Source: a virus
Virus record (IMG/VR): IMGVR_UViG_3300035171_000016
Span: 32,001-96,000 of that record
Length of the DNA: 64,000 nucleotides
Reading direction: 5' to 3' (one strand)
A model generated the notes under the pieces. That model was not told where the DNA came from. It did no database searches and saw nothing but the letters and a program-made list of their open reading frames with translations. The position numbers and the translations under genes are program-made. Below, piece after piece: positions 15,568 through 52,542 of the stretch; within the stretch, counting starts at the first letter, position 1, and each line of letters starts with the position of its first letter.

Positions 15568-16200
15568 CTATTGAGCTAAGAACCAGAACCAATCTGGATG
15601 ACCTAAATGCTTAATAGTTAACGCTACAGGCATGGGAAGAGGCTCCTTATGGTTAAATAAAGGCTTTAAGCCTAACTCTTCCAAAGGTTTATTTCCACGC
15701 TTACTATTAATTTCGGCATCTACGAACATAAGATTTTCAAAAGTATCTTTTCCGCCGTGACTTTTGGCCTGCTTATGTTCAAGATTTCCTCTTTTAAAAG
15801 GAATTTTCTTGCCAGAATAGCCACATCTTCCGTCCTGCTTCTCGTAAAAGTACATTTTAGTTGGCCTAAACCTTTTTTTAGGTATTTTGCCATAATTTGT
15901 AACGATTACTGAAGGGCAACGAATTGTTAGTTTTGAAGTTCTAACTACATTATCTATTCCGACTCTTGGCTCAACCATTAACCATTCTTCAAAATCTAAA
16001 GCTTGGTAATAATCTAATTCGTTTAAATTTAATGAGCCGTCCTCATTTTTCTTATAAACGACATCAATAGCCTTTGCGGTAATAGTATAGTCGTTAGACT
16101 GGCTATTAAGCGCGACTAAAGCCTTCTTTGGTGAAAGAGTGCCGATACACTGGTAGCCTTTATTCAAGACTAATACTGATGATTTATTTAAATAGTCCAT
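15568..16200 (-). CDS. HNH endonuclease (McrA-like, VLVLN N-terminus)
   Basis: VLVLNKGYQ, CGYSG, NLEH...SHGGKDTFENL...NSKRGNK. Confidence 0.85.
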   Translation of the reverse strand: MDYLNKSSVLVLNKGYQCIGTLSPKKALVALNSQSNDYTITAKAIDVVYKKNEDGSLNLNELDYYQALDFEEWLMVEPRVGIDNVVRTSKLTIRCPSVIVTNYGKIPKKRFRPTKMYFYEKQDGRCGYSGKKIPFKRGNLEHKQAKSHGGKDTFENLMFVDAEINSKRGNKPLEELGLKPLFNHKEPLPMPVALTIKHLGHPDWFWFLAQ

Positions 16201-16440
16201 GTTATACTAGTTTCTATTTTATTTTTATTTAATTTGTCCCATTGTTTTAATGCGTAATATATTCTTTTAGTCGCGCTTCCAATTCTTTCTTTAGAAATAT
16301 CTCCGTGTGCATGAATTGTGCTTCTTAGTGCCCCGACAATAGCTTTTTCTAAACTTCCGCGTTTGTTTGTATTAAAATTAAAATTGTTCATTTATTAATA
16401 AAAAATAATAGATAAATATTAAAATGTCAAGAAATTAATT

Positions 16441-16691
16441 GAAACGCAGCCATAATCGCCGTTCTGTTTTATCTCTACATTTATCTCACTTTTCAGTGGC
16501 TAATCTTTATGATTAGCTGCTCCAACCTTTCCTTTACATCGGCCAGCACTAGCCTTTGGAACTTTAGGATTACTGCTAATTTGTGGTATTAATGAACGGG
16601 TGCAAAAGCAAGTACCGTTCTCCCAACATCTGCTATGCAGAGGCGAATTTCCTCAAATCATTTCTGACTTGCGTAGAGTCGCTTACGTTTC
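16441..16691 (-). ncRNA. rnpB: RNase P RNA (compact, about 251 nt)
   Basis: P1 GAAACGUA/UGCGUUUC. P2 CUCUAC/GUAGAG. P3 AAGUCA-GAAA-UGAUUU. CR-I GAGGAAAUUCGCC (16654-16642) pairs with CR-V ACAGAACGGCGAUUA (16467-16453) to form P4 with the bulged U. CR-IV AGAUAAAUG. P18 CACU-GAAA-AGUG. Confidence 0.88.
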
Positions 16692-17144
16692 AAAATTTAT
16701 TTTTTCTATAGTAGCGTCTGGATAAATAATTATAATTTTTTTCTTCATTTTCACAGCATACCTTTTGGTAGACCATGTTCCTGACCTAAGTTGTTCAATT
16801 TTTTCTTTAGGACAAACAATTAATAATTCAGATTCGTTAACAATATCTTTATTTCTATCTAAATACGGTTTTGACGGCAAAATTGTTTTAGCTTTACAAA
16901 AGGCTCGTTTAACCTCATTAATTGGTGGATGAATAATAATTTTTCCTAAAAATTTATTCTTATTTTGAATAAAATAAAAAACAGATAAATTATGAGCATC
17001 ATAATCAGCCCCTAAACAATCTCCATGATGAAATTCTCTACAGTCTAACGTAAACAAAAAAATAAAAAATATATTCTTTTGTTCCTGAGTCATTCCTGCC
17101 TGTGTTCCAGTAAATCCTATAACCATATAATTTATAATTTCCAA
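16683..17144 (-). CDS. SLOG superfamily (YspA/DprA-like) nucleotide-binding protein
   Basis: IGFTGTQ, HHGDCLGAD, RNKDIV and RSGTWST motifs; its stop codon lies inside P1 of the RNase P RNA. Confidence 0.75.
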   Translation of the reverse strand: MEIINYMVIGFTGTQAGMTQEQKNIFFIFLFTLDCREFHHGDCLGADYDAHNLSVFYFIQNKNKFLGKIIIHPPINEVKRAFCKAKTILPSKPYLDRNKDIVNESELLIVCPKEKIEQLRSGTWSTKRYAVKMKKKIIIIYPDATIEKINFET

Positions 17145-17560
17145 TTATCTTGATTATCCTCAAGTCTAGAATTAAACCATCCATAAAAACCAGAAGGAAA
17201 AGAGGCAAATATAATAGACATAAAAATACAAAATAATACTCTAATAGGCCACAATGCTACCCATCCAACCCACCAAGTTATAGTTTTTTTAGTCATATAA
17301 ATATGATAATATTGTTATTTTAAAAAGTCAAGATATATAAAAACAAAAAATCCATCAGAAACTAATCTGATGGATTTGATTTATTAAAAAAATTTATGAC
17401 AATTGTTTTATTACATTTGCCGCAAGATATTGTATCTGGAATAAATCCGGTAGTAGCCCATTTTTGAAAATGGCCGCATTTACATTTTAATTTAAATTGA
17501 GGAACTTGGCCGTATACACCGACCTTGCGACTTCTAATTCTTATTGCGTTTTTCATAAAA

Positions 17561-17635
17561 TGGAGGGAATGGCTGGACTTTAACCAGATTATCTTCTTTA
17601 CGAAAGAAGTGCATCAACATAAATGCTTCAAACCC
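17561..17635 (-). tRNA. tRNA-Thr(CGT), U-U mismatches in acceptor stem
   Basis: Cloverleaf; anticodon arm CTTCT-TTCGTAA-AGAAG; encoded TCCA. Confidence 0.8.
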
Positions 17636-17639
17636 GTAA

Positions 17640-17714
17640 TGGAGGGAAAGCCGGAACTTGCATCCGGTTGACAATATTACCAATATTGCGTTTTACTATA
17701 TAAACCACAATCCC
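17640..17714 (-). tRNA. tRNA-Thr(GGT), U-U mismatches in acceptor stem
   Basis: CAATA-TTGGTAA-TATTG; encoded TCCA. Confidence 0.8.
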
Positions 17715-17945
17715 ATTTAAGCTATCCAGACATCAATCTATAATTACATCCGTATTTTTCTTTAAAAACTTCGTTTTCTTTTTTACCATGAACTTTTGGC
17801 CAGCCTTGTTCTTCCCATATAATACAATACTCGCAAATACCATGAATAATAATCAAATCACGCCCGCATTCTGGACACTGATTTTTTAGATAATATTTGC
17901 GTCCAAAAGTAAAATCTTTCATATATTTAATTATGTTAGGTAACA

Positions 17946-18025
17946 TGGCGAAGTTGGCGAGAGTCGAACTCGCATAATTTCCAATTATGCACTTACTGTT
18001 TAGGAAACAGAGCCATTACAACTTC
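17946..18025 (-). tRNA. Non-canonical tRNA-Arg(CCT) with D-loop relocated 3' of the anticodon arm
   Basis: Acceptor GAAGTTG/CAACTTC; T-arm GCGAG-TTCGACT-CTCGC; anticodon loop TTCCTAA; only 7 nt before the anticodon stem; GCCA end. Confidence 0.75.
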
Positions 18026-18054
18026 AAAATTAATAATAATTAAAATAACTTCCT

Positions 18055-18336
18055 TTACCATAAATGAGAAAAATCAATCTCTCTGGTTCCAACTTGAATG
18101 CCTATGCTCCCATTTAGAGTCGAAAGATGCGTGGCCGTTAGAAAAGAAAAGAAAAGAAAAGAAAAGAAAAGAAAAGAAAAGAAAAGAAATGAACTATGAT
18201 TAGGACATTCAAAATAGAATAGGTCATTCCCACTTCTTTCTCCAGTTAAGGGGTCGAACTTGATTTCCACAGAATACTCTTTTATAATAAGAGGGCTTCT
18301 GCATTTCTCACAAAAAACATCAGATTTAGTTTTCAT
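18055..18336 (-). CDS. Small Zn-ribbon protein containing a pentanucleotide repeat tract
   Basis: CEKC...CPNH followed by (TTTTC)9. Confidence 0.5.
   Translation of the reverse strand: MKTKSDVFCEKCRSPLIIKEYSVEIKFDPLTGERSGNDLFYFECPNHSSFLFFSFLFFSFLFFSFLTATHLSTLNGSIGIQVGTREIDFSHLW
18141..18185. repeat. (GAAAA)9 simple sequence repeat
   Basis: Nine perfect tandem units. Confidence 0.95.
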
Positions 18337-18352
18337 ATTTTGTTTTATAAAA

Positions 18353-18444
18353 TGGCGGATACAGAAGGGGATGCTCCCTCACTGGCTGTTAAACCAGAAC
18401 ACTTTAGCAAAGTGCCGCGCCAAGCTGATATGCGCCTTGTATCC
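18353..18444 (-). tRNA. tRNA-Ser(GCT)
   Basis: GCACT-TTGCTAA-AGTGT; long V-arm; G73; CCA. Confidence 0.9.
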
Positions 18445-18448
18445 AAAA

Positions 18449-18533
18449 TGGTAGCCACGGGGAGATTCGGACTCCCAAACCCATCCGGTTTAAGCGGATA
18501 TGCTGTTCCAGTTCGCAATGAGGGCACGCGGCC
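18449..18533 (-). tRNA. Atypical tRNA-Leu(TAA): 8-nt insertion after position 9, no V-arm hairpin
   Basis: ATCCG-CTTAAAC-CGGAT; A73; CCA. Confidence 0.8.
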
Positions 18534-18803
18534 ATTAAATTAACAAAATAAATACCTATAATATACTACCATCAAAACAAAATACAGAACTAATCCGGTA
18601 ACATATAATATTAGTTTAATTAAATCTTTAGAACTTATATTTTGTTCATAAAAATTATTTTCTTTTTCTGGTGGATATTTTGACCAATAATCTCCATCTG
18701 TTTTATACCATCCATCAAGAATGGCGCGATTACGATGTTTTTCTATCCAAGGTTCTTTCATATAAAAAGTATAATACTTTTATGCTTTAAAGTCAATACA
18801 AAT

Positions 18804-18878
18804 TGGTGCGCCTAGATGGTAACAATCCATCTTCTTTCGGGTAAGGGCCGATTGCTTCATCATTAAAGCTTTAAGCGC
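18804..18878 (-). tRNA. tRNA-Lys(CTT)
   Basis: Anticodon loop CCCTTAC (C33); ACCA end. Confidence 0.8.
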
Positions 18879-18882
18879 AAAA

Positions 18883-18961
18883 TGGTAGGCGATGCAAGGT
18901 GGGAACTTGCGGCATTTTCTTTGTAATAGAAATAGTCTTAACCCGTCTGACGTAATCGCCC
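18883..18961 (-). tRNA. tRNA-Val(TAC)
   Basis: TTTCT-ATTACAA-AGAAA; ACCA end. Confidence 0.8.
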
Positions 18962-18968
18962 ATAAAAT

Positions 18969-19046
18969 TGGTACTTCTACTATGTTACCAGCATAGATAA
19001 TTAGATTCAGAGTCTAATATAATTAAGGTATTTATATTATAGAAGT
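18969..19046 (-). tRNA. tRNA-Gln(CTG), divergent
   Basis: TTAGA-CTCTGAA-TCTAA; all stems pair; ACCA end. Confidence 0.7.
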
Positions 19047-19052
19047 ATGAAA

Positions 19053-19130
19053 TGGAGGACACGGGGAATTGGCTGCTCCCATAATGCTCATTACAAATAA
19101 GCTACTTTAAGCCATTTAAGCTACGAGTCC
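19053..19130 (-). tRNA. tRNA-Thr(TGT)
   Basis: GCTTA-TTTGTAA-TGAGC; TCCA end. Confidence 0.75.
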
Positions 19131-19660
19131 ATTAAAAATTATATTCTCTTTCGCTAATTAAAATTCCGTCTCTATAAACTTTGAACCAATCATAGGGCTG
19201 GCTTAATACAAAATTTTCACATTCAATAAAAGTATCTCTATACTCTTCTATTAAATCTAATCCTCGAATTTTGAGTTTAATTAAATATCGTTTCATAAAC
19301 ATCCACTATAATATTCTTCCCACATACCCTTCCAATATTTATCATTTTCTTCTTGGCATACTGGACATAAGATTGCAAAATTACTTTTATCTTCAACGTA
19401 ATTAGTATTTTGGCGACGTTTTATCGCACCTAACTTATTACAACAATCGCATCTAAGTTTTCTTTTCATTTAAATTAAATTTTGAATTAGGATTAGTATA
19501 ACACCATTCACATTGGACTTGAATTTGTATTTGTTCTCCATATTCATTATGAGTAGTTAAGTGTCCTACATACCATCCAACATTATCACAGTGAGGACAG
19601 TCTTGCCCCTCCTTATTACAATGCGAGCCATTTACAAATGTTGTTGGCTCAAACATAAAT

Positions 19661-19737
19661 TGGTCGCTAATCTTGGAATTAAACCAAGTAACTTGTCTTT
19701 ATGAGAGACAAAGCTCAATCAGTTGCGTTTATTAGCG
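19661..19737 (-). tRNA. tRNA-Met or Ile2 (CAT)
   Basis: TGTCT-CTCATAA-AGACA; ACCA end. Confidence 0.8.
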
Positions 19738-20167
19738 TTTATTAGCGTTTTTTAACTTCGTTTACTTTTACTTTGTAAATTTTAAATTTATTATTAGGTA
19801 ATTTAATCTTAAATGTAAATCCCTTTCCGTATGGTAGATATTTCCCATTAAAATTAATTTCTTTTATTACCCTATATTTTCTATTATAAGAACGATTTAG
19901 CTCTGCTTGTAATCCACAAAGAACTTTATCTCCGAGGGTCAAAGATATTAAATCTGGAATATATTCATTATCAAATTTATTCATAATATAATTCGGTTAT
20001 AAAATAGTTAATGATGGCAACAGCTTCCCACCATAGTAAACATAGAGAAAATAGCAATCCATGATAAGTTAATAGATATATCTTTTAAAATCTTTTTGAT
20101 TTCGTTAAATTGTTTATCGTTCATGTATTGATATTAATATAAAAAATATAAGAAGTCAATATTAAAA

Positions 20168-20243
20168 TGGCCCGGTTTATCCGAGTCGAACGGATTTCTC
20201 CTCCTCTTCAGGGAAGATACATGACCCCACATTAGCAAACCGG
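20168..20243 (-). tRNA. tRNA-Phe(GAA), atypical D region
   Basis: CTTCC-CTGAAGA-GGAGG; T-loop TTCGACT; GCCA end. Confidence 0.75.
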
Positions 20244-20247
20244 AAAC

Positions 20248-20323
20248 TGGCGCGGGTTTCGCTTGAATTGAAATGTATCAACTCAACCAAGTTCCTTTTG
20301 TCTAACTTGGAATAGGAGCCCGC
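20248..20323 (-). ncRNA. 76-nt CCA-terminated tRNA-like RNA without a recognisable T-arm
   Basis: GCGGG/CCCGC terminal stem, G-CCA end, two internal hairpins; spaced like a tRNA within the array. Confidence 0.55.
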
Positions 20324-20328
20324 ATAAA

Positions 20329-20405
20329 TGGTACAGTCGGTAGGAGTTGCACCCACATAATTCTCCTTAGAACGGAGTTCCCTAATCTATTCGAGGCACG
20401 GCTGC
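20329..20405 (-). tRNA. tRNA-Arg(TCT)
   Basis: Anticodon loop GTTCTAA; A20; ACCA end. Confidence 0.85.
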
Positions 20406-20412
20406 ATTAAAA

Positions 20413-20490
20413 TGGACGACCTATCTAGTCGGGAGCTAGAAAATAGACTTTCAAAGAGTCCTGTGTTTAACCCACTTACACTATAGGTCG
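20413..20490 (-). tRNA. tRNA-Gln(TTG)
   Basis: GGACT-CTTTGAA-AGTCT; its 5' end overlaps the last codons of the HNH ORF. Confidence 0.8.
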
Positions 20491-20889
20491 AGCTTTGTGT
20501 GGACAGGTTCCGCCGTTAATTTGCCTACCACAATTACAATTAAAGCATAAAATTCGATAACCGGATGGAAAATTATTTCTAATGATATTAATTAATATAT
20601 TTCTAGAGCCGTTAAATTTTTTTCTTTCTTTGTTTCCGTTATTATTAATATGGTCAACCGTAAGAAATTGATAAGTATCTTCCCCGCAGCATTCACATTT
20701 ATTGCCATAGTGTTCTATTACAGTTTTTCTTATTTTGTTGCAATATCTTTTTGAATTTTCTTTGTAATTGGGGTCTGATTTTGAGCGACATTTCCAGCAT
20801 ACAGAGCGAAATAATGGCTCTCCATTTTCCTTATAATTTGCTATTTCCGCATCTTTTTCTTTACATATTTTACATTTTGGTCTATTCAT
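20476..20889 (-). CDS. HNH endonuclease
   Basis: CECCGE...LTVDHINNNG...YRILCFNCN. Confidence 0.85.
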   Translation of the reverse strand: MNRPKCKICKEKDAEIANYKENGEPLFRSVCWKCRSKSDPNYKENSKRYCNKIRKTVIEHYGNKCECCGEDTYQFLTVDHINNNGNKERKKFNGSRNILINIIRNNFPSGYRILCFNCNCGRQINGGTCPHKARPIV

Positions 20890-20956
20890 AATGGTATTTA
20901 CACTAAATCCATACCACTTTATAAAATATTAAAAAATGATTGTATATATCTATTAT

Positions 20957-27748: not shown

Positions 27749-28441
27749 TTATAATTTTTCAAAAATAGCCATAGAATTGCCACCATTTTCGTCTTTATTA
27801 AGCTTTCTTGTGCCTGAAACCTCTTTAATTAGCTTCCATCCGGCCCTTACCTCATTAATTAGTCCTAATTTATCTAGGGCCCCTCTAACATTAATATATT
27901 CTCCGCAATGACCCTGCCAATCGGTTCCGGTCTCTTCTACGCCAGAATCGTGAAACATCACTATTCCGCCAGATTTAACCTTCTTTTCAATGGCTTTAAA
28001 ATCGTTCATTACGCATTTTGAGCCATGACACGCATCAATTATAACTAAATCTAAGCTATCAGGAGAAATATTATCAACCCACGCTCTAGGGTCTTCTCTT
28101 AAAACTAGGACGGAATTATATTTTTCCGTGGCAAAGGATTCTAGGAATTTTTCATCATTTCCAGAATTATTTATAAGAAGTTCTTCTGGTTTAAATATTT
28201 GATTTATTTTGGCAAAATTAACATCAGCAGAGCCTATTAGGTCTAATCCGATTGTCAGCCAGCTATGTGTTTTAATGTTTTCTGAAATAATATCTCTAAT
28301 AGCTCTGTGTGTTACGGCGGTAGCTACGCCAATTTCTAAAAAGATATATTCTTCCTTATTTCTAACATGATTAGAAATAATATTTTCTAATTCCACCTCA
28401 AGTCCTTCGGTTCTAATTCCCCATGCTCTATTTTTATTCAT
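27749..28441 (-). CDS. Class I SAM-dependent methyltransferase (Methyltransf_24-like)
   Basis: FLEIGV, DLVIIDACH and GGIVMFHD motifs. Confidence 0.85.
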   Translation of the reverse strand: MNKNRAWGIRTEGLEVELENIISNHVRNKEEYIFLEIGVATAVTHRAIRDIISENIKTHSWLTIGLDLIGSADVNFAKINQIFKPEELLINNSGNDEKFLESFATEKYNSVLVLREDPRAWVDNISPDSLDLVIIDACHGSKCVMNDFKAIEKKVKSGGIVMFHDSGVEETGTDWQGHCGEYINVRGALDKLGLINEVRAGWKLIKEVSGTRKLNKDENGGNSMAIFEKL

Positions 28442-51722: not shown

Positions 51723-52542
51723 ATTTATGTAATTTTTCTACCTTTAGGAATTTTTTAAAATTTTTATATCCTACTCTATCATATACTATGGATGTTATAA
51801 TATCATTTTTATAGCCAGATGTCAACGCTAATTTTCTAATCCCGTCTTCAATAAAGGTCTCACCTGTTATTAAATTAGTTAGTTTCCAATAAAAAGTATT
51901 ACAATTTCTATTGTTTTTTAATTTTTTTGATATTTTTTCGTTTCTCTTATTTTTGTGAGGTTCTACATTATTTTTTTTATCAAAAAATGCTTGATATTTT
52001 TTTAATATTAAACCTTTAAATCTTATAGAATTTACAATTGTACAATGTTTTATTCCTAATTCTTTGGCACAGTTATTTATTGATTCAAATTCCTTTAAAA
52101 AAAAGCCTTCTTTATTATATAGAAATACTTTTTTCTTATTCTTTGCGGATTTAATATGGTTTTTTATACACTCCTTATTTTTTTTAAAGTTTTCTCCGCC
52201 ATCTGTTAAATTGTAACCATACTCTTTTTCGTTTGATTTAAAAAATTTTATCCAATATGTTTCTCGTTTTGCAAGATTTTTTAAAGATACTTCTTCTATT
52301 ATAAGAAAATCAAATTTATCAAAACCATATTTTTTAATGGCTCTATGTATCGCCATCTGACCTCGCCCATTTATTCCATGATATAAATAAGACTTAAATC
52401 TTTTACTTAAATTGGTAGTTAAGCCTACATAAACCTTTCCATTTACTAGATTAGATAATTTATAAATTAAACATTTTTTATAGTATATGCCATAGGTTTT
52501 ATATCTTTTTCGTTCTAAATTTTTTATTTGTAATAATGTCAT
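51709..52542 (-). CDS. GIY-YIG homing endonuclease
   Basis: IYKLSNLVNGKVYVG...GYNLTDGG. Confidence 0.9.
   Translation of the reverse strand: MTLLQIKNLERKRYKTYGIYYKKCLIYKLSNLVNGKVYVGLTTNLSKRFKSYLYHGINGRGQMAIHRAIKKYGFDKFDFLIIEEVSLKNLAKRETYWIKFFKSNEKEYGYNLTDGGENFKKNKECIKNHIKSAKNKKKVFLYNKEGFFLKEFESINNCAKELGIKHCTIVNSIRFKGLILKKYQAFFDKKNNVEPHKNKRNEKISKKLKNNRNCNTFYWKLTNLITGETFIEDGIRKLALTSGYKNDIITSIVYDRVGYKNFKKFLKVEKLHKYDKI

What the first reader, a model, noticed from the sequence alone, without database searches (positions are those of the whole stretch)
17946..18025. Rewired tRNA-Arg(CCT) with the same D-loop relocation
Seen: perfect acceptor stem and canonical T-arm (TTCGACT), but only TAATGGC before the anticodon arm. 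After that arm comes GCAT-AATTGGA, a typical D-stem 5' strand plus GG D-loop, whose CAT can pair with the upstream ATG. Here U55 goes with GG, whereas the rewired Tyr has G55 with AG, so the two genes support the same topology independently. The last A of its CCA is also the A of the ATG of ORF 17722..17946. Inference: a second member of a rearranged tRNA class, decoding the rare AGG codon.
Basis: partly seen in the sequence, partly recalled or inferred. Interest (0 to 1): 0.82.

Follow-up and report, generated by a model that had tools for sequence, protein, structure and literature searches.

The report
Phage arginine tRNA with rewired D-arm
This 80-base phage gene is very probably a working arginine tRNA (anticodon CCU) that has all the usual tRNA parts, but half of the D-stem and the whole D-loop lie after the anticodon arm; about 90 phage sequences share this non-cloverleaf layout, gene finders miss it, and I found no paper describing it.

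Summary
Window 18025..17946 (minus strand) has a perfect 7-bp acceptor stem, U8-A9, a CCU anticodon arm, a canonical T arm (UUCGACU) and an encoded CCA. There is no D hairpin: only AUGGC lies before the anticodon arm, and GCAU-AAUUGGA follows it.

ARAGORN and the Rfam tRNA model miss the gene. It is not a one-off. Pattern scans and a covariance model recovered 90 distinct relatives, mostly in tRNA arrays on viral contigs, 7 on MAG contigs, and in the cultured phages E. coli phi92 and Streptomyces Yaboi.

Across these relatives, a 3-bp helix closes around the anticodon arm. It joins the strand 5' of the arm to the strand 3' of it and covaries strongly, with four pair types per position. No variable-arm hairpin is conserved.

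The relocated loop keeps A14, A15 (which covaries with U48), G18-G19 and A20. A20 is the ArgRS determinant: it is present in 87 of 88 members with an Arg anticodon and absent in the two members with other anticodons.

AGG is not rare here, at 13% of Arg codons. Charging and 3D fold are inferred, not shown. This scan has already reported the same class on other genomes, and eight literature searches found no description.

The parts
17946..18025 (-). Whole gene: rewired tRNA-Arg(CCU), 80 nt including the encoded CCA
   Evidence: Sequence. Model R1 scores 82.6 bits, E about 1e-21. ARAGORN at default settings and Rfam RF00005 at E up to 10 do not find it.
18019..18025 (-). Acceptor stem, 5' strand GAAGUUG
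   Evidence: Pairs perfectly with 17950-17956. All 7 family pairs show changes on both sides.
18017..18018 (-). U8 A9
   Evidence: Invariant in the 58-sequence MAFFT alignment A3 and in all other sequences printed.
18012..18016 (-). AUGGC: takes the place of the D-stem 3' strand (positions 22-25) plus position 26, and runs straight into the anticodon stem
   Evidence: U11 and G12 pair with A38 and C37. Both family positions are 100% paired with 4 pair types each.
17995..18011 (-). Anticodon arm U-CUGU-UUCCUAA-ACAG-U; anticodon CCU at 18002-18004
   Evidence: Four Watson-Crick pairs plus a U.U at the 27-43 position. The stem covaries across the family. U33 and A37 are present.
17991..17994 (-). 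AAGU linker between the anticodon stem and the relocated D-stem strand
   Evidence: The linker is 3 to 8 nt long and mostly A-rich across the family. In this subfamily its last two bases (G34, U35) can pair with C14 and G13 if G36 bulges out.
17987..17990 (-). GCAU: takes the place of the D-stem 5' strand (positions 10-13)
   Evidence: It covaries with 18012-18016. In an anchor-based test 38 of 58 sequences were fully complementary, against 12.9 +/- 2.3 in shuffles (0 of 10,000 reached 38).
17980..17986 (-). AAUUGGA: D-loop equivalent (A14, A15, G18, G19, A20)
   Evidence: U13 and A14 are invariant in 90 of 90 sequences. GGA is present in 87 of 88 members with an Arg anticodon. A15 covaries with the base before the T stem.
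17974..17979 (-). AAUUAU: variable-region equivalent ending in U48
   Evidence: Its length runs from 3 to 18 nt across the family. L090 carries a small extra hairpin here. It ends in A-U in 87 of 90 sequences.
17957..17973 (-). T arm GCGAG-UUCGACU-CUCGC
   Evidence: Five pairs. Family T-stem cells are 98% paired with covariation.
17950..17956 (-). Acceptor stem, 3' strand CAACUUC
17946..17949 (-). Discriminator G73 and encoded CCA; the last A is also the A of the ATG of ORF 17722..17946

Best explanation
The gene encodes a functional elongator tRNA-Arg(CCU) that reads AGG and has non-cloverleaf connectivity. Two internal segments are strung in swapped order.

- Canonical order: [acceptor 5' strand, 8-9] [D-stem 5' strand + D-loop, 10-21] [D-stem 3' strand + anticodon arm, 22-44] [variable region, T arm, acceptor 3' strand].
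- Order here: [acceptor 5' strand, 8-9] [22-44] [10-21] [47-76].

The short D-helix therefore forms by pairing around the anticodon arm, as a coaxial extension of it across a small internal loop. The relocated loop (A14, A15, G18-G19, A20) runs from the top of that helix straight into the T stem.

Shown here: the segment order, the covarying helix, and conservation of the bases that build the canonical core and elbow.

Inferred, not shown: the usual tertiary contacts form (U8-A14, A15-U48, G18-psi55, G19-C56), so the L-shape is kept. Host ArgRS charges the tRNA through A20, C35 and U36. RNase P and the ribosome accept it.

Why phages keep this form is unknown.
For: 1. All tRNA modules are present in the window gene.

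2. Pattern scans found 51 distinct CCU members on viral contigs. Seven more lie in dense tRNA arrays on MAG contigs, out of 185,579 species genomes scanned.

3. Model R1 separates the class from ordinary tRNAs: 44-88 bits against 35 bits or less.

4. The helix around the anticodon arm covaries.
- On the MAFFT alignment A4, which was not fitted to any structure, two pairs are 100% paired with 4 pair types each.
- On 90 distinct sequences the counts are CG58/UA26/GC4/AU2 and GC57/CG13/AU9/UA8.
- In an anchor-based test, 38 of 58 sequences were fully complementary against 12.9 +/- 2.3 in shuffles.

5. Acceptor, anticodon and T stems all covary, with 94.8% of cells paired. This rules out pseudogenes.

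6. Core bases are kept. U8 and A9 are invariant in the 58-sequence alignment A3 and in all other sequences printed. U13 and A14 are invariant in 90 of 90. Position 15 and the base before the T stem are A-U in 87 sequences, and in all three sequences of the alignment with G at 15 the partner is C or G rather than U.

7. GGA (A20) is present in 87 of 88 members with an Arg anticodon (CCU, UCU, UCG, CCG, ACG). The only two non-Arg members (CAU, CUU) have GGU. From established knowledge, A20 and C35 are the main bacterial ArgRS determinants.

8. The gene sits in a co-oriented array of about 33 tRNAs and is the array's only CCU tRNA. Arg(UCU) at 20329-20405 and Arg(ACG) at 25835-25911 are ordinary cloverleaves. 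AGG supplies 13% of Arg codons.

9. The E. coli phi92 copy has a near-consensus promoter (TTGACA, 17 nt, TG-n-TATAGT) ending 12 nt before its 5' end.
Against: - I obtained no expression, processing, charging or structure data.
- Energy models do not favour the short helix. The MFE fold of this sequence uses the 8-bp AU-rich hairpin instead.
- With the three main stems fixed, the family fold (-15.1 to -15.6 kcal/mol) and the variable hairpin (-15.3 kcal/mol) are equal.
- RNAalifold predicts neither.
- In the window's subfamily (16 of 58) the third helix position is G.G. The helix there is 2 conserved pairs plus A10-U39, or 4-5 pairs if G36 is bulged.
- Shuffle controls ignore relatedness among the sequences.
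- The CM-fitted alignment A6 leans towards the modelled structure.
Confidence: 0.8

Rival explanations
1. It is a D-arm-less tRNA with a class-II-like variable-arm hairpin (AUAAUU-GGA-AAUUAU). The GG lies in the hairpin loop, and the strand before the anticodon arm stays single-stranded.
For: The MFE fold of the window sequence forms this hairpin. With the main stems fixed, it is as stable as the family fold. L082 carries the same UAAUUGGAAAUUAU segment, and a few members have 4-bp hairpins of this kind, such as L010 and L020.
Against: Across 58 sequences, the longest hairpin in the 3' segment is no longer than in shuffled sequence: the mode is 3 bp, against 3-4 bp in shuffles. RNAalifold predicts no such hairpin. 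This reading does not explain why the 5' strand covaries with the 3' strand.
Confidence: 0.08
2. It is a tRNA-like RNA that is not used in translation, for example a decoy for a host tRNA-cleaving or tRNA-modifying enzyme, or a processing or regulatory element in the polycistronic array.
For: The fold departs from what tRNA-handling enzymes normally see. The Rfam tmRNA model weakly matches its acceptor/T domain (19.4 bits, gathering score 47). The CCA overlaps the start codon of the next ORF.
Against: Five different Arg anticodons occur in the class, and all keep A20, the ArgRS determinant. The two non-Arg members lack A20. That pattern fits charging identity better than mimicry. The gene is the array's only reader dedicated to AGG. 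ARAGORN finds no tmRNA.
Confidence: 0.08
3. It is a decayed tRNA pseudogene, or the transcript is cut and rejoined into the normal order as with circularly permuted tRNA genes.
For: No standard gene finder accepts it.
Against: About 90 diverged copies keep every stem through compensatory changes. The acceptor ends lie at the gene termini, unlike permuted genes (PMC3978253). Restoring canonical order would need two cut-and-join events, I saw no splice motifs in the sequences, and bacteria are not known to have that machinery (established knowledge).
Confidence: 0.03

Closest known systems
Canonical class I bacterial and phage tRNA-Arg (Rfam RF00005), for example this window's own tRNA-Arg(ACG) at 25835-25911 and tRNA-Arg(UCU) at 20329-20405
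   Same: 7-bp acceptor stem, U8-A9, 5-bp anticodon stem with 7-nt loop, 5-bp T stem with UUCGANU loop, encoded CCA, and A14, A15, G18-G19, A20, C35 and a U48-like base.
   Different: There is no D hairpin. The D-stem 5' strand and the D-loop lie 3' of the anticodon arm, so the secondary structure is not a cloverleaf. RF00005 gives no hit even at E up to 10.
D-arm-lacking mitochondrial tRNAs (mammalian mt tRNA-Ser(AGY), nematode mt tRNAs)
   Same: No hairpin lies between the acceptor and anticodon stems. The anticodon helix is effectively extended.
   Different: Those tRNAs have lost the D-loop and the G18-G19 elbow contact (established knowledge). Here the loop with GG and A20 is kept but relocated, and the T loop is fully canonical.
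Circularly permuted and split tRNA genes (Cyanidioschyzon merolae, Nanoarchaeum; PMC3978253)
   Same: tRNA segments lie in a non-standard order in the genome.
   Different: There the mature tRNA is a normal cloverleaf after processing, and the permutation moves the acceptor ends. Here the ends are normal, and the mature RNA itself is expected to carry the swapped order.
allo-tRNAs and 8/4 or 9/3 tRNAs (Mukai et al. 2017, PMC5389517)
   Same: Non-canonical tRNA architectures found by mining metagenomes and phage tRNA clusters.
   Different: Those change the lengths of the acceptor and T stems and keep a D hairpin. This class keeps the 7/5 arrangement and changes strand connectivity.
tRNA-like domain of tmRNA (Rfam RF00023)
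   Same: Acceptor stem plus T arm without a proper D stem. This is the only Rfam model that touches the gene (19.4 bits).
   Different: There is no tag reading frame and no pseudoknots, and the gene is only 80 nt. It has an anticodon arm. ARAGORN's tmRNA search finds nothing.

Membership tests
tRNA (Rfam RF00005 cloverleaf) | 7-bp acceptor stem, discriminator base and 3' CCA | tested here: met
   GAAGUUG pairs with CAACUUC, followed by G73 and an encoded CCA. The pairs covary in the family.
tRNA (Rfam RF00005 cloverleaf) | T arm: 5-bp stem and 7-nt loop with U54 U55 C56 and A58 | tested here: met
   GCGAG-UUCGACU-CUCGC.
tRNA (Rfam RF00005 cloverleaf) | Anticodon arm with a 7-nt loop, U33 and a purine at 37 | tested here: met
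   CUGU-UUCCUAA-ACAG. The 27-43 position is U.U in the window and is paired in most relatives.
tRNA (Rfam RF00005 cloverleaf) | D hairpin between position 9 and the anticodon stem | tested here: not met
   Only 5-6 nt lie there. ARAGORN makes a call only at an 80% threshold, with a shifted acceptor stem and a forced arm.
tRNA (Rfam RF00005 cloverleaf) | Scores above the family's gathering threshold (29 bits) | tested here: not met
   There is no RF00005 match at this locus even with E up to 10.
tRNA (function) | Aminoacylated and used by the ribosome | not testable with these tools
   This needs wet-lab assays.
Bacterial tRNA-Arg identity set (A20, C35, U/G36, A/G73; established knowledge) | A20 directly after G18-G19 | tested here: met
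   The window has GGA. So do 87 of 88 class members with an Arg anticodon, while the CAU and CUU members have GGU.
Bacterial tRNA-Arg identity set (A20, C35, U/G36, A/G73; established knowledge) | C35, U or G at 36, purine at 73 | tested here: met
   The anticodon is CCU and the discriminator is G.
Rewired phage tRNA-Arg class (defined here by model R1) | Layout: acceptor, U8-A9, 5-nt strand, anticodon arm, linker, complementary strand, U-A-A-n-G-G-A, then A-U, then T arm | tested here: met
   R1 scores 82.6 bits over its full length.
Rewired phage tRNA-Arg class (defined here by model R1) | 3-bp helix closing around the anticodon arm | tested here: inconclusive
   The window has 2 of the 3 family pairs (U11-A38, G12-C37), G13.G36 at the third position, and an extra A10-U39. 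The 16-member subfamily shares the G.G and allows a bulged-G alternative of 4-5 pairs.
tmRNA | Tag-peptide reading frame and pseudoknots | tested here: not met
   The gene is 80 nt. ARAGORN -m finds nothing. RF00023 scores 19.4 bits against a gathering score of 47.
Circularly permuted tRNA gene | Gene termini lie inside the tRNA body, with the acceptor ends joined internally | tested here: not met
   The acceptor strands are at the two ends of the gene.

The most novel reading that the evidence does not exclude
The swapped connectivity is an adaptation rather than a neutral oddity. It would keep charging and decoding intact while making the phage's arginine tRNAs poor substrates for enzymes that recognise the normal D-arm or core. 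Such enzymes could be host tRNA-cleaving defence or toxin nucleases, or the phage's own host-tRNA-depleting activity. The rarer Tyr, Lys and CAU versions would do the same. If so, the phage supplies a nuclease-proof replacement set. It would also be the first natural tRNA whose mature form is a topological isomer of the cloverleaf that still builds the L-shape.
Probability: 0.2. Interest if true: 0.9.

Novelty: new variant of a known kind. Interest (0 to 1): 0.8.

Why it matters
The cloverleaf is treated as universal outside a few mitochondria. This class keeps every canonical base and helix but strings them in a different order. It would show that the L-shape, ArgRS, RNase P, EF-Tu and the ribosome tolerate a different strand topology.

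It also has a practical side. Standard finders miss or mis-bound these genes: ARAGORN called 3 of the 59 CCU-type genes, each with wrong ends. As a result, phage tRNA inventories and codon-supply analyses undercount arginine tRNAs. The phi92 and Yaboi records leave the gene unannotated, and a newer phi92-like record labels it 'tRNA-OTHER'.

Because cultured E. coli and Streptomyces phages carry members, the class is directly testable.

Tried and rejected
- **Phage record search.** Megablast of the whole array against 50,697 phage records gave no match. The first blastn with the window gene hit only T-arm fragments.
- **Wrong search pattern.** TAATGGA..ATGNNNNGTTCGA had the T stem one base too long and returned mostly unrelated sites.
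- **Wrong strand.** Alignment A1 used the wrong strand for L009 and was redone as A2.
- **MAFFT limits.** The alignment of all 58 sequences (A3) splits the relocated strand across gap columns. I built the model from a 24-sequence subset (A4) and did the anchor-based test in a script.
- **Indexing error.** The D-stem energies used indices off by one and are void. One search replaces them and is indecisive.
- **RNAalifold.** It did not recover the short helix.
- **Flanking ORFs.** PHROG searches of the small flanking ORFs gave nothing usable.
- **Readings rejected.** tmRNA, mitochondrial-type armless tRNA and permuted-gene readings were rejected (see the membership tests).
- **Literature.** Eight full-text searches found no description of this layout. 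Subscription-only papers were not searched.

Full report
**What is at the site**

On the minus strand, window 18025..17946 reads as follows:
- acceptor strand GAAGUUG
- U8 A9
- AUGGC
- anticodon arm U-CUGU-UUCCUAA-ACAG-U (anticodon CCU)
- AAGU
- GCAU
- AAUUGGA
- AAUUAU
- T arm GCGAG-UUCGACU-CUCGC
- acceptor strand CAACUUC
- G73 and CCA

The final A of the CCA is the A of the ATG of ORF 17722..17946.

ARAGORN at default settings does not call the gene. The Rfam tRNA model gives no match even at E up to 10. Only the tmRNA model touches the acceptor/T part, at 19.4 bits against a gathering score of 47. ARAGORN at an 80% threshold calls tRNA-Arg(cct), but with an acceptor stem shifted by 6 nt and a forced D arm.

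**Context**

The window is bases 32001-96000 of a 147,760-bp IMG/VR virus record estimated 95% complete. It has about 29-34% G+C. It encodes a clamp loader, a DnaB-like helicase, a UvsX-like recombinase, ribonucleotide reductase and homing endonucleases, so this is a large lytic phage.

The gene lies in a co-oriented tRNA array at roughly 17.5-27 kb. The array also holds ordinary cloverleaf tRNA-Arg(UCU) at 20329-20405 and tRNA-Arg(ACG) at 25835-25911. The gene studied here is its only CCU tRNA.

In ORFs of 120 aa or more across the genome, AGG occurs 158 times (4.6 per 1000 codons). That makes it the second most used Arg codon, at 13%. It is not rare.

**Relatives**

- The pattern 'anticodon arm plus T loop at an over-long distance' found 11 viral contigs, all with the same odd layout.
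- A looser pattern (TTCCTAA, 18-40 nt, ATGNNNGTTCGANTC) raised this to 51 distinct genes on viral contigs.
- The same pattern across one genome for each of 185,579 prokaryote species gave only 7. All 7 lie in dense tRNA arrays of up to 24 tRNAs in 8 kb on MAG contigs.
- A covariance model (R1) built from 24 of them scores class members at 44-88 bits and ordinary tRNAs at 35 bits or less.
- R1 also finds the layout with other anticodons. In the 90 distinct sequences the counts are CCU 58, UCU 20, UCG 6, CCG 3, ACG 1, CAU 1 and CUU 1.
- Cultured phages carry it. E. coli phage phi92 has an Arg(UCU) copy behind a near-consensus promoter. The copy is unannotated in FR775895.2 and labelled 'tRNA-OTHER' in phage Antha. 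Streptomyces phage Yaboi has an unannotated Arg(CCU) copy scoring 81.6 bits.
- ARAGORN at default settings of the 59 CCU-type genes tested, each with wrong ends.

**The fold**

All members share this order: acceptor, U8-A9, N-XXX-N, a 5-bp anticodon stem with a 7-nt loop, a 3-8-nt linker that is mostly A-rich, X'X'X', U-A-A-n(n)-G-G-A, 3-18 nt ending in A-U, T arm, acceptor.

I located XXX and X'X'X' from fixed landmarks, not from their pairing.
- They are fully complementary in 38 of 58 sequences, in 12 different complementary combinations. Shuffled partners give 12.9 +/- 2.3, and none of 10,000 shuffles reached 38.
- On the MAFFT alignment A4, which was not fitted to any structure, the first two pairs are paired in every sequence, with four pair types each.
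- On the 90-sequence model alignment the counts are CG58/UA26/GC4/AU2 and GC57/CG13/AU9/UA8. The third pair is standard in 56 sequences and G.G in 31.

The G.G cases form one subfamily, to which the window belongs: U-G-G-C facing G-Y-G-C-A. There the helix is either two pairs plus a mismatch, or four pairs with a bulged G. The second reading is supported by a G-U to G-C change and by L053's UAG/GUA variant. In the window, A10-U39 adds one more pair.

The rival fold is a hairpin within the 3' segment. It is not conserved. The longest stems there are no longer than in shuffled sequence, and RNAalifold predicts none.

**Tertiary and identity signals**

The relocated loop begins U13-A14 in 90 of 90 sequences. 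Position 15 and the base just before the T stem are A and U in 87. In all three sequences of that alignment with G at 15, the partner is C or G. A further copy, L041:10185-10265, also shows G with C. This is the behaviour of the canonical 15-48 Levitt pair.

GGA follows in 87 of 88 members with an Arg anticodon. The two non-Arg members have GGU. From established knowledge, A20 and C35 are the principal ArgRS determinants in bacteria, so this pattern argues for arginine charging.

**Geometry (inference)**

In a normal tRNA, the strand 22-25 runs down into the anticodon stem and the strand 10-13 runs up from it to the D-loop at the elbow. In this gene:
- U8-A9 feeds directly into the descending strand.
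- The 3' side of the anticodon stem feeds, through the linker, into the ascending strand.
- The loop goes from the elbow straight to the T stem.

The same helices and loop can therefore occupy their usual places, with three backbone connections exchanged.

**Caveats**

- Nearest-neighbour energies do not decide the fold for this sequence. The MFE (-20.4 kcal/mol) uses an 8-bp AU-rich hairpin that invades the T stem.
- With the three main stems fixed, the family fold gives -15.1 to -15.6 kcal/mol and the variable hairpin -15.3 kcal/mol (which replaces the mis-indexed values).
- I have no evidence for expression, charging or 3D structure.
- The shuffle controls ignore relatedness among the sequences, although the number of distinct compensatory combinations is large.

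**Comparison with what is known**

- It works like a class I tRNA-Arg but fails the cloverleaf definition: it has no D hairpin and no RF00005 hit.
- It differs from armless mitochondrial tRNAs, which lose the GG loop.
- It differs from permuted or split tRNA genes, whose mature product is a normal cloverleaf (PMC3978253).
- It differs from allo-tRNAs, which alter the acceptor/T stem lengths but keep a D hairpin (PMC5389517).
- It is not a tmRNA.
- Eight full-text searches found no description of this layout.
- This scan's own records show the same class reported on several other phage genomes, with the same conclusion. I reached my reading before consulting those notes and re-tested the claims here.

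**Verdict**

The gene is a real and conserved non-cloverleaf phage tRNA-Arg, very probably functional. Relative to the literature I could search, the class appears undescribed, and it can be tested directly in phi92 and Yaboi.

Noticed in passing
window 26245-26333 (-): A tRNA-Tyr(GUA)-like gene with no D hairpin. CUCAAC before the anticodon arm (AGGGU-CUGUAAA-ACCUU) is the exact complement of GUUGAG after it. AAGUUAAGC and a 4-bp T stem with loop AGCGUUA follow, and the acceptor looks like 8 bp with a bulge. The topology resembles the Arg class, but model R1 does not detect it.
   Followed up: partly
window 16000-28000 (-): ARAGORN at default settings finds only 12 tRNAs in an array where Rfam at relaxed thresholds and relaxed ARAGORN find about 30. 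Many of the array's tRNAs score unusually low, so the whole set looks atypical.
   Followed up: partly
window 18140-18193: A perfect pentanucleotide microsatellite, (AGAAA) x 10.8, lies inside the small minus-strand ORF 18055-18336, where it encodes FLFFS repeats. It sits directly upstream of the rewired tRNA.
   Followed up: no
window 17722-17946 (-): A 74-aa ORF with two CxxC motifs (zinc-ribbon-like). Its ATG shares its A with the tRNA's CCA end, so 3' processing of the tRNA would remove the start codon. PHROG matches are not significant (E about 0.007-0.01).
   Followed up: partly
L194:1420-1538 (E. coli phage phi92, FR775895.2 about 51,834-51,952): A rewired tRNA-Arg(UCU) that is unannotated in the phi92 record. 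It lies behind TTGACA, 17 nt, TG-n-TATAGT, which ends 12 nt before the tRNA 5' end. The identical gene is labelled 'tRNA-OTHER' in phage Antha (L195:1460-1538).
   Followed up: partly
L039:2038-2113 (-) and L041:11003-11080 (-): Two class members carry non-Arg anticodons (CAU and CUU). Both have GGU instead of GGA after the relocated loop's GG, as expected if A20 marks arginine identity.
   Followed up: partly
L003, L031, L033, L035, L043, L048, L054, L055 (acceptor positions 6-67): A conserved U.U mismatch at acceptor pair 6-67 in one subfamily. At this pair 19 of 90 sequences are unpaired, while all neighbouring pairs are kept.
   Followed up: no
window 16441-16691 (-): A weak match to archaeal-type RNase P RNA (18.3 bits, gathering score 84) at the distal end of the tRNA array. 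Another note of this scan flagged it too.
   Followed up: no
L090:1421-1507 (+): A class member with an extra GCC-GGAA-GGC mini-hairpin between the relocated D-loop and the T stem. This shows that the segment behaves like a true variable region.
   Followed up: no
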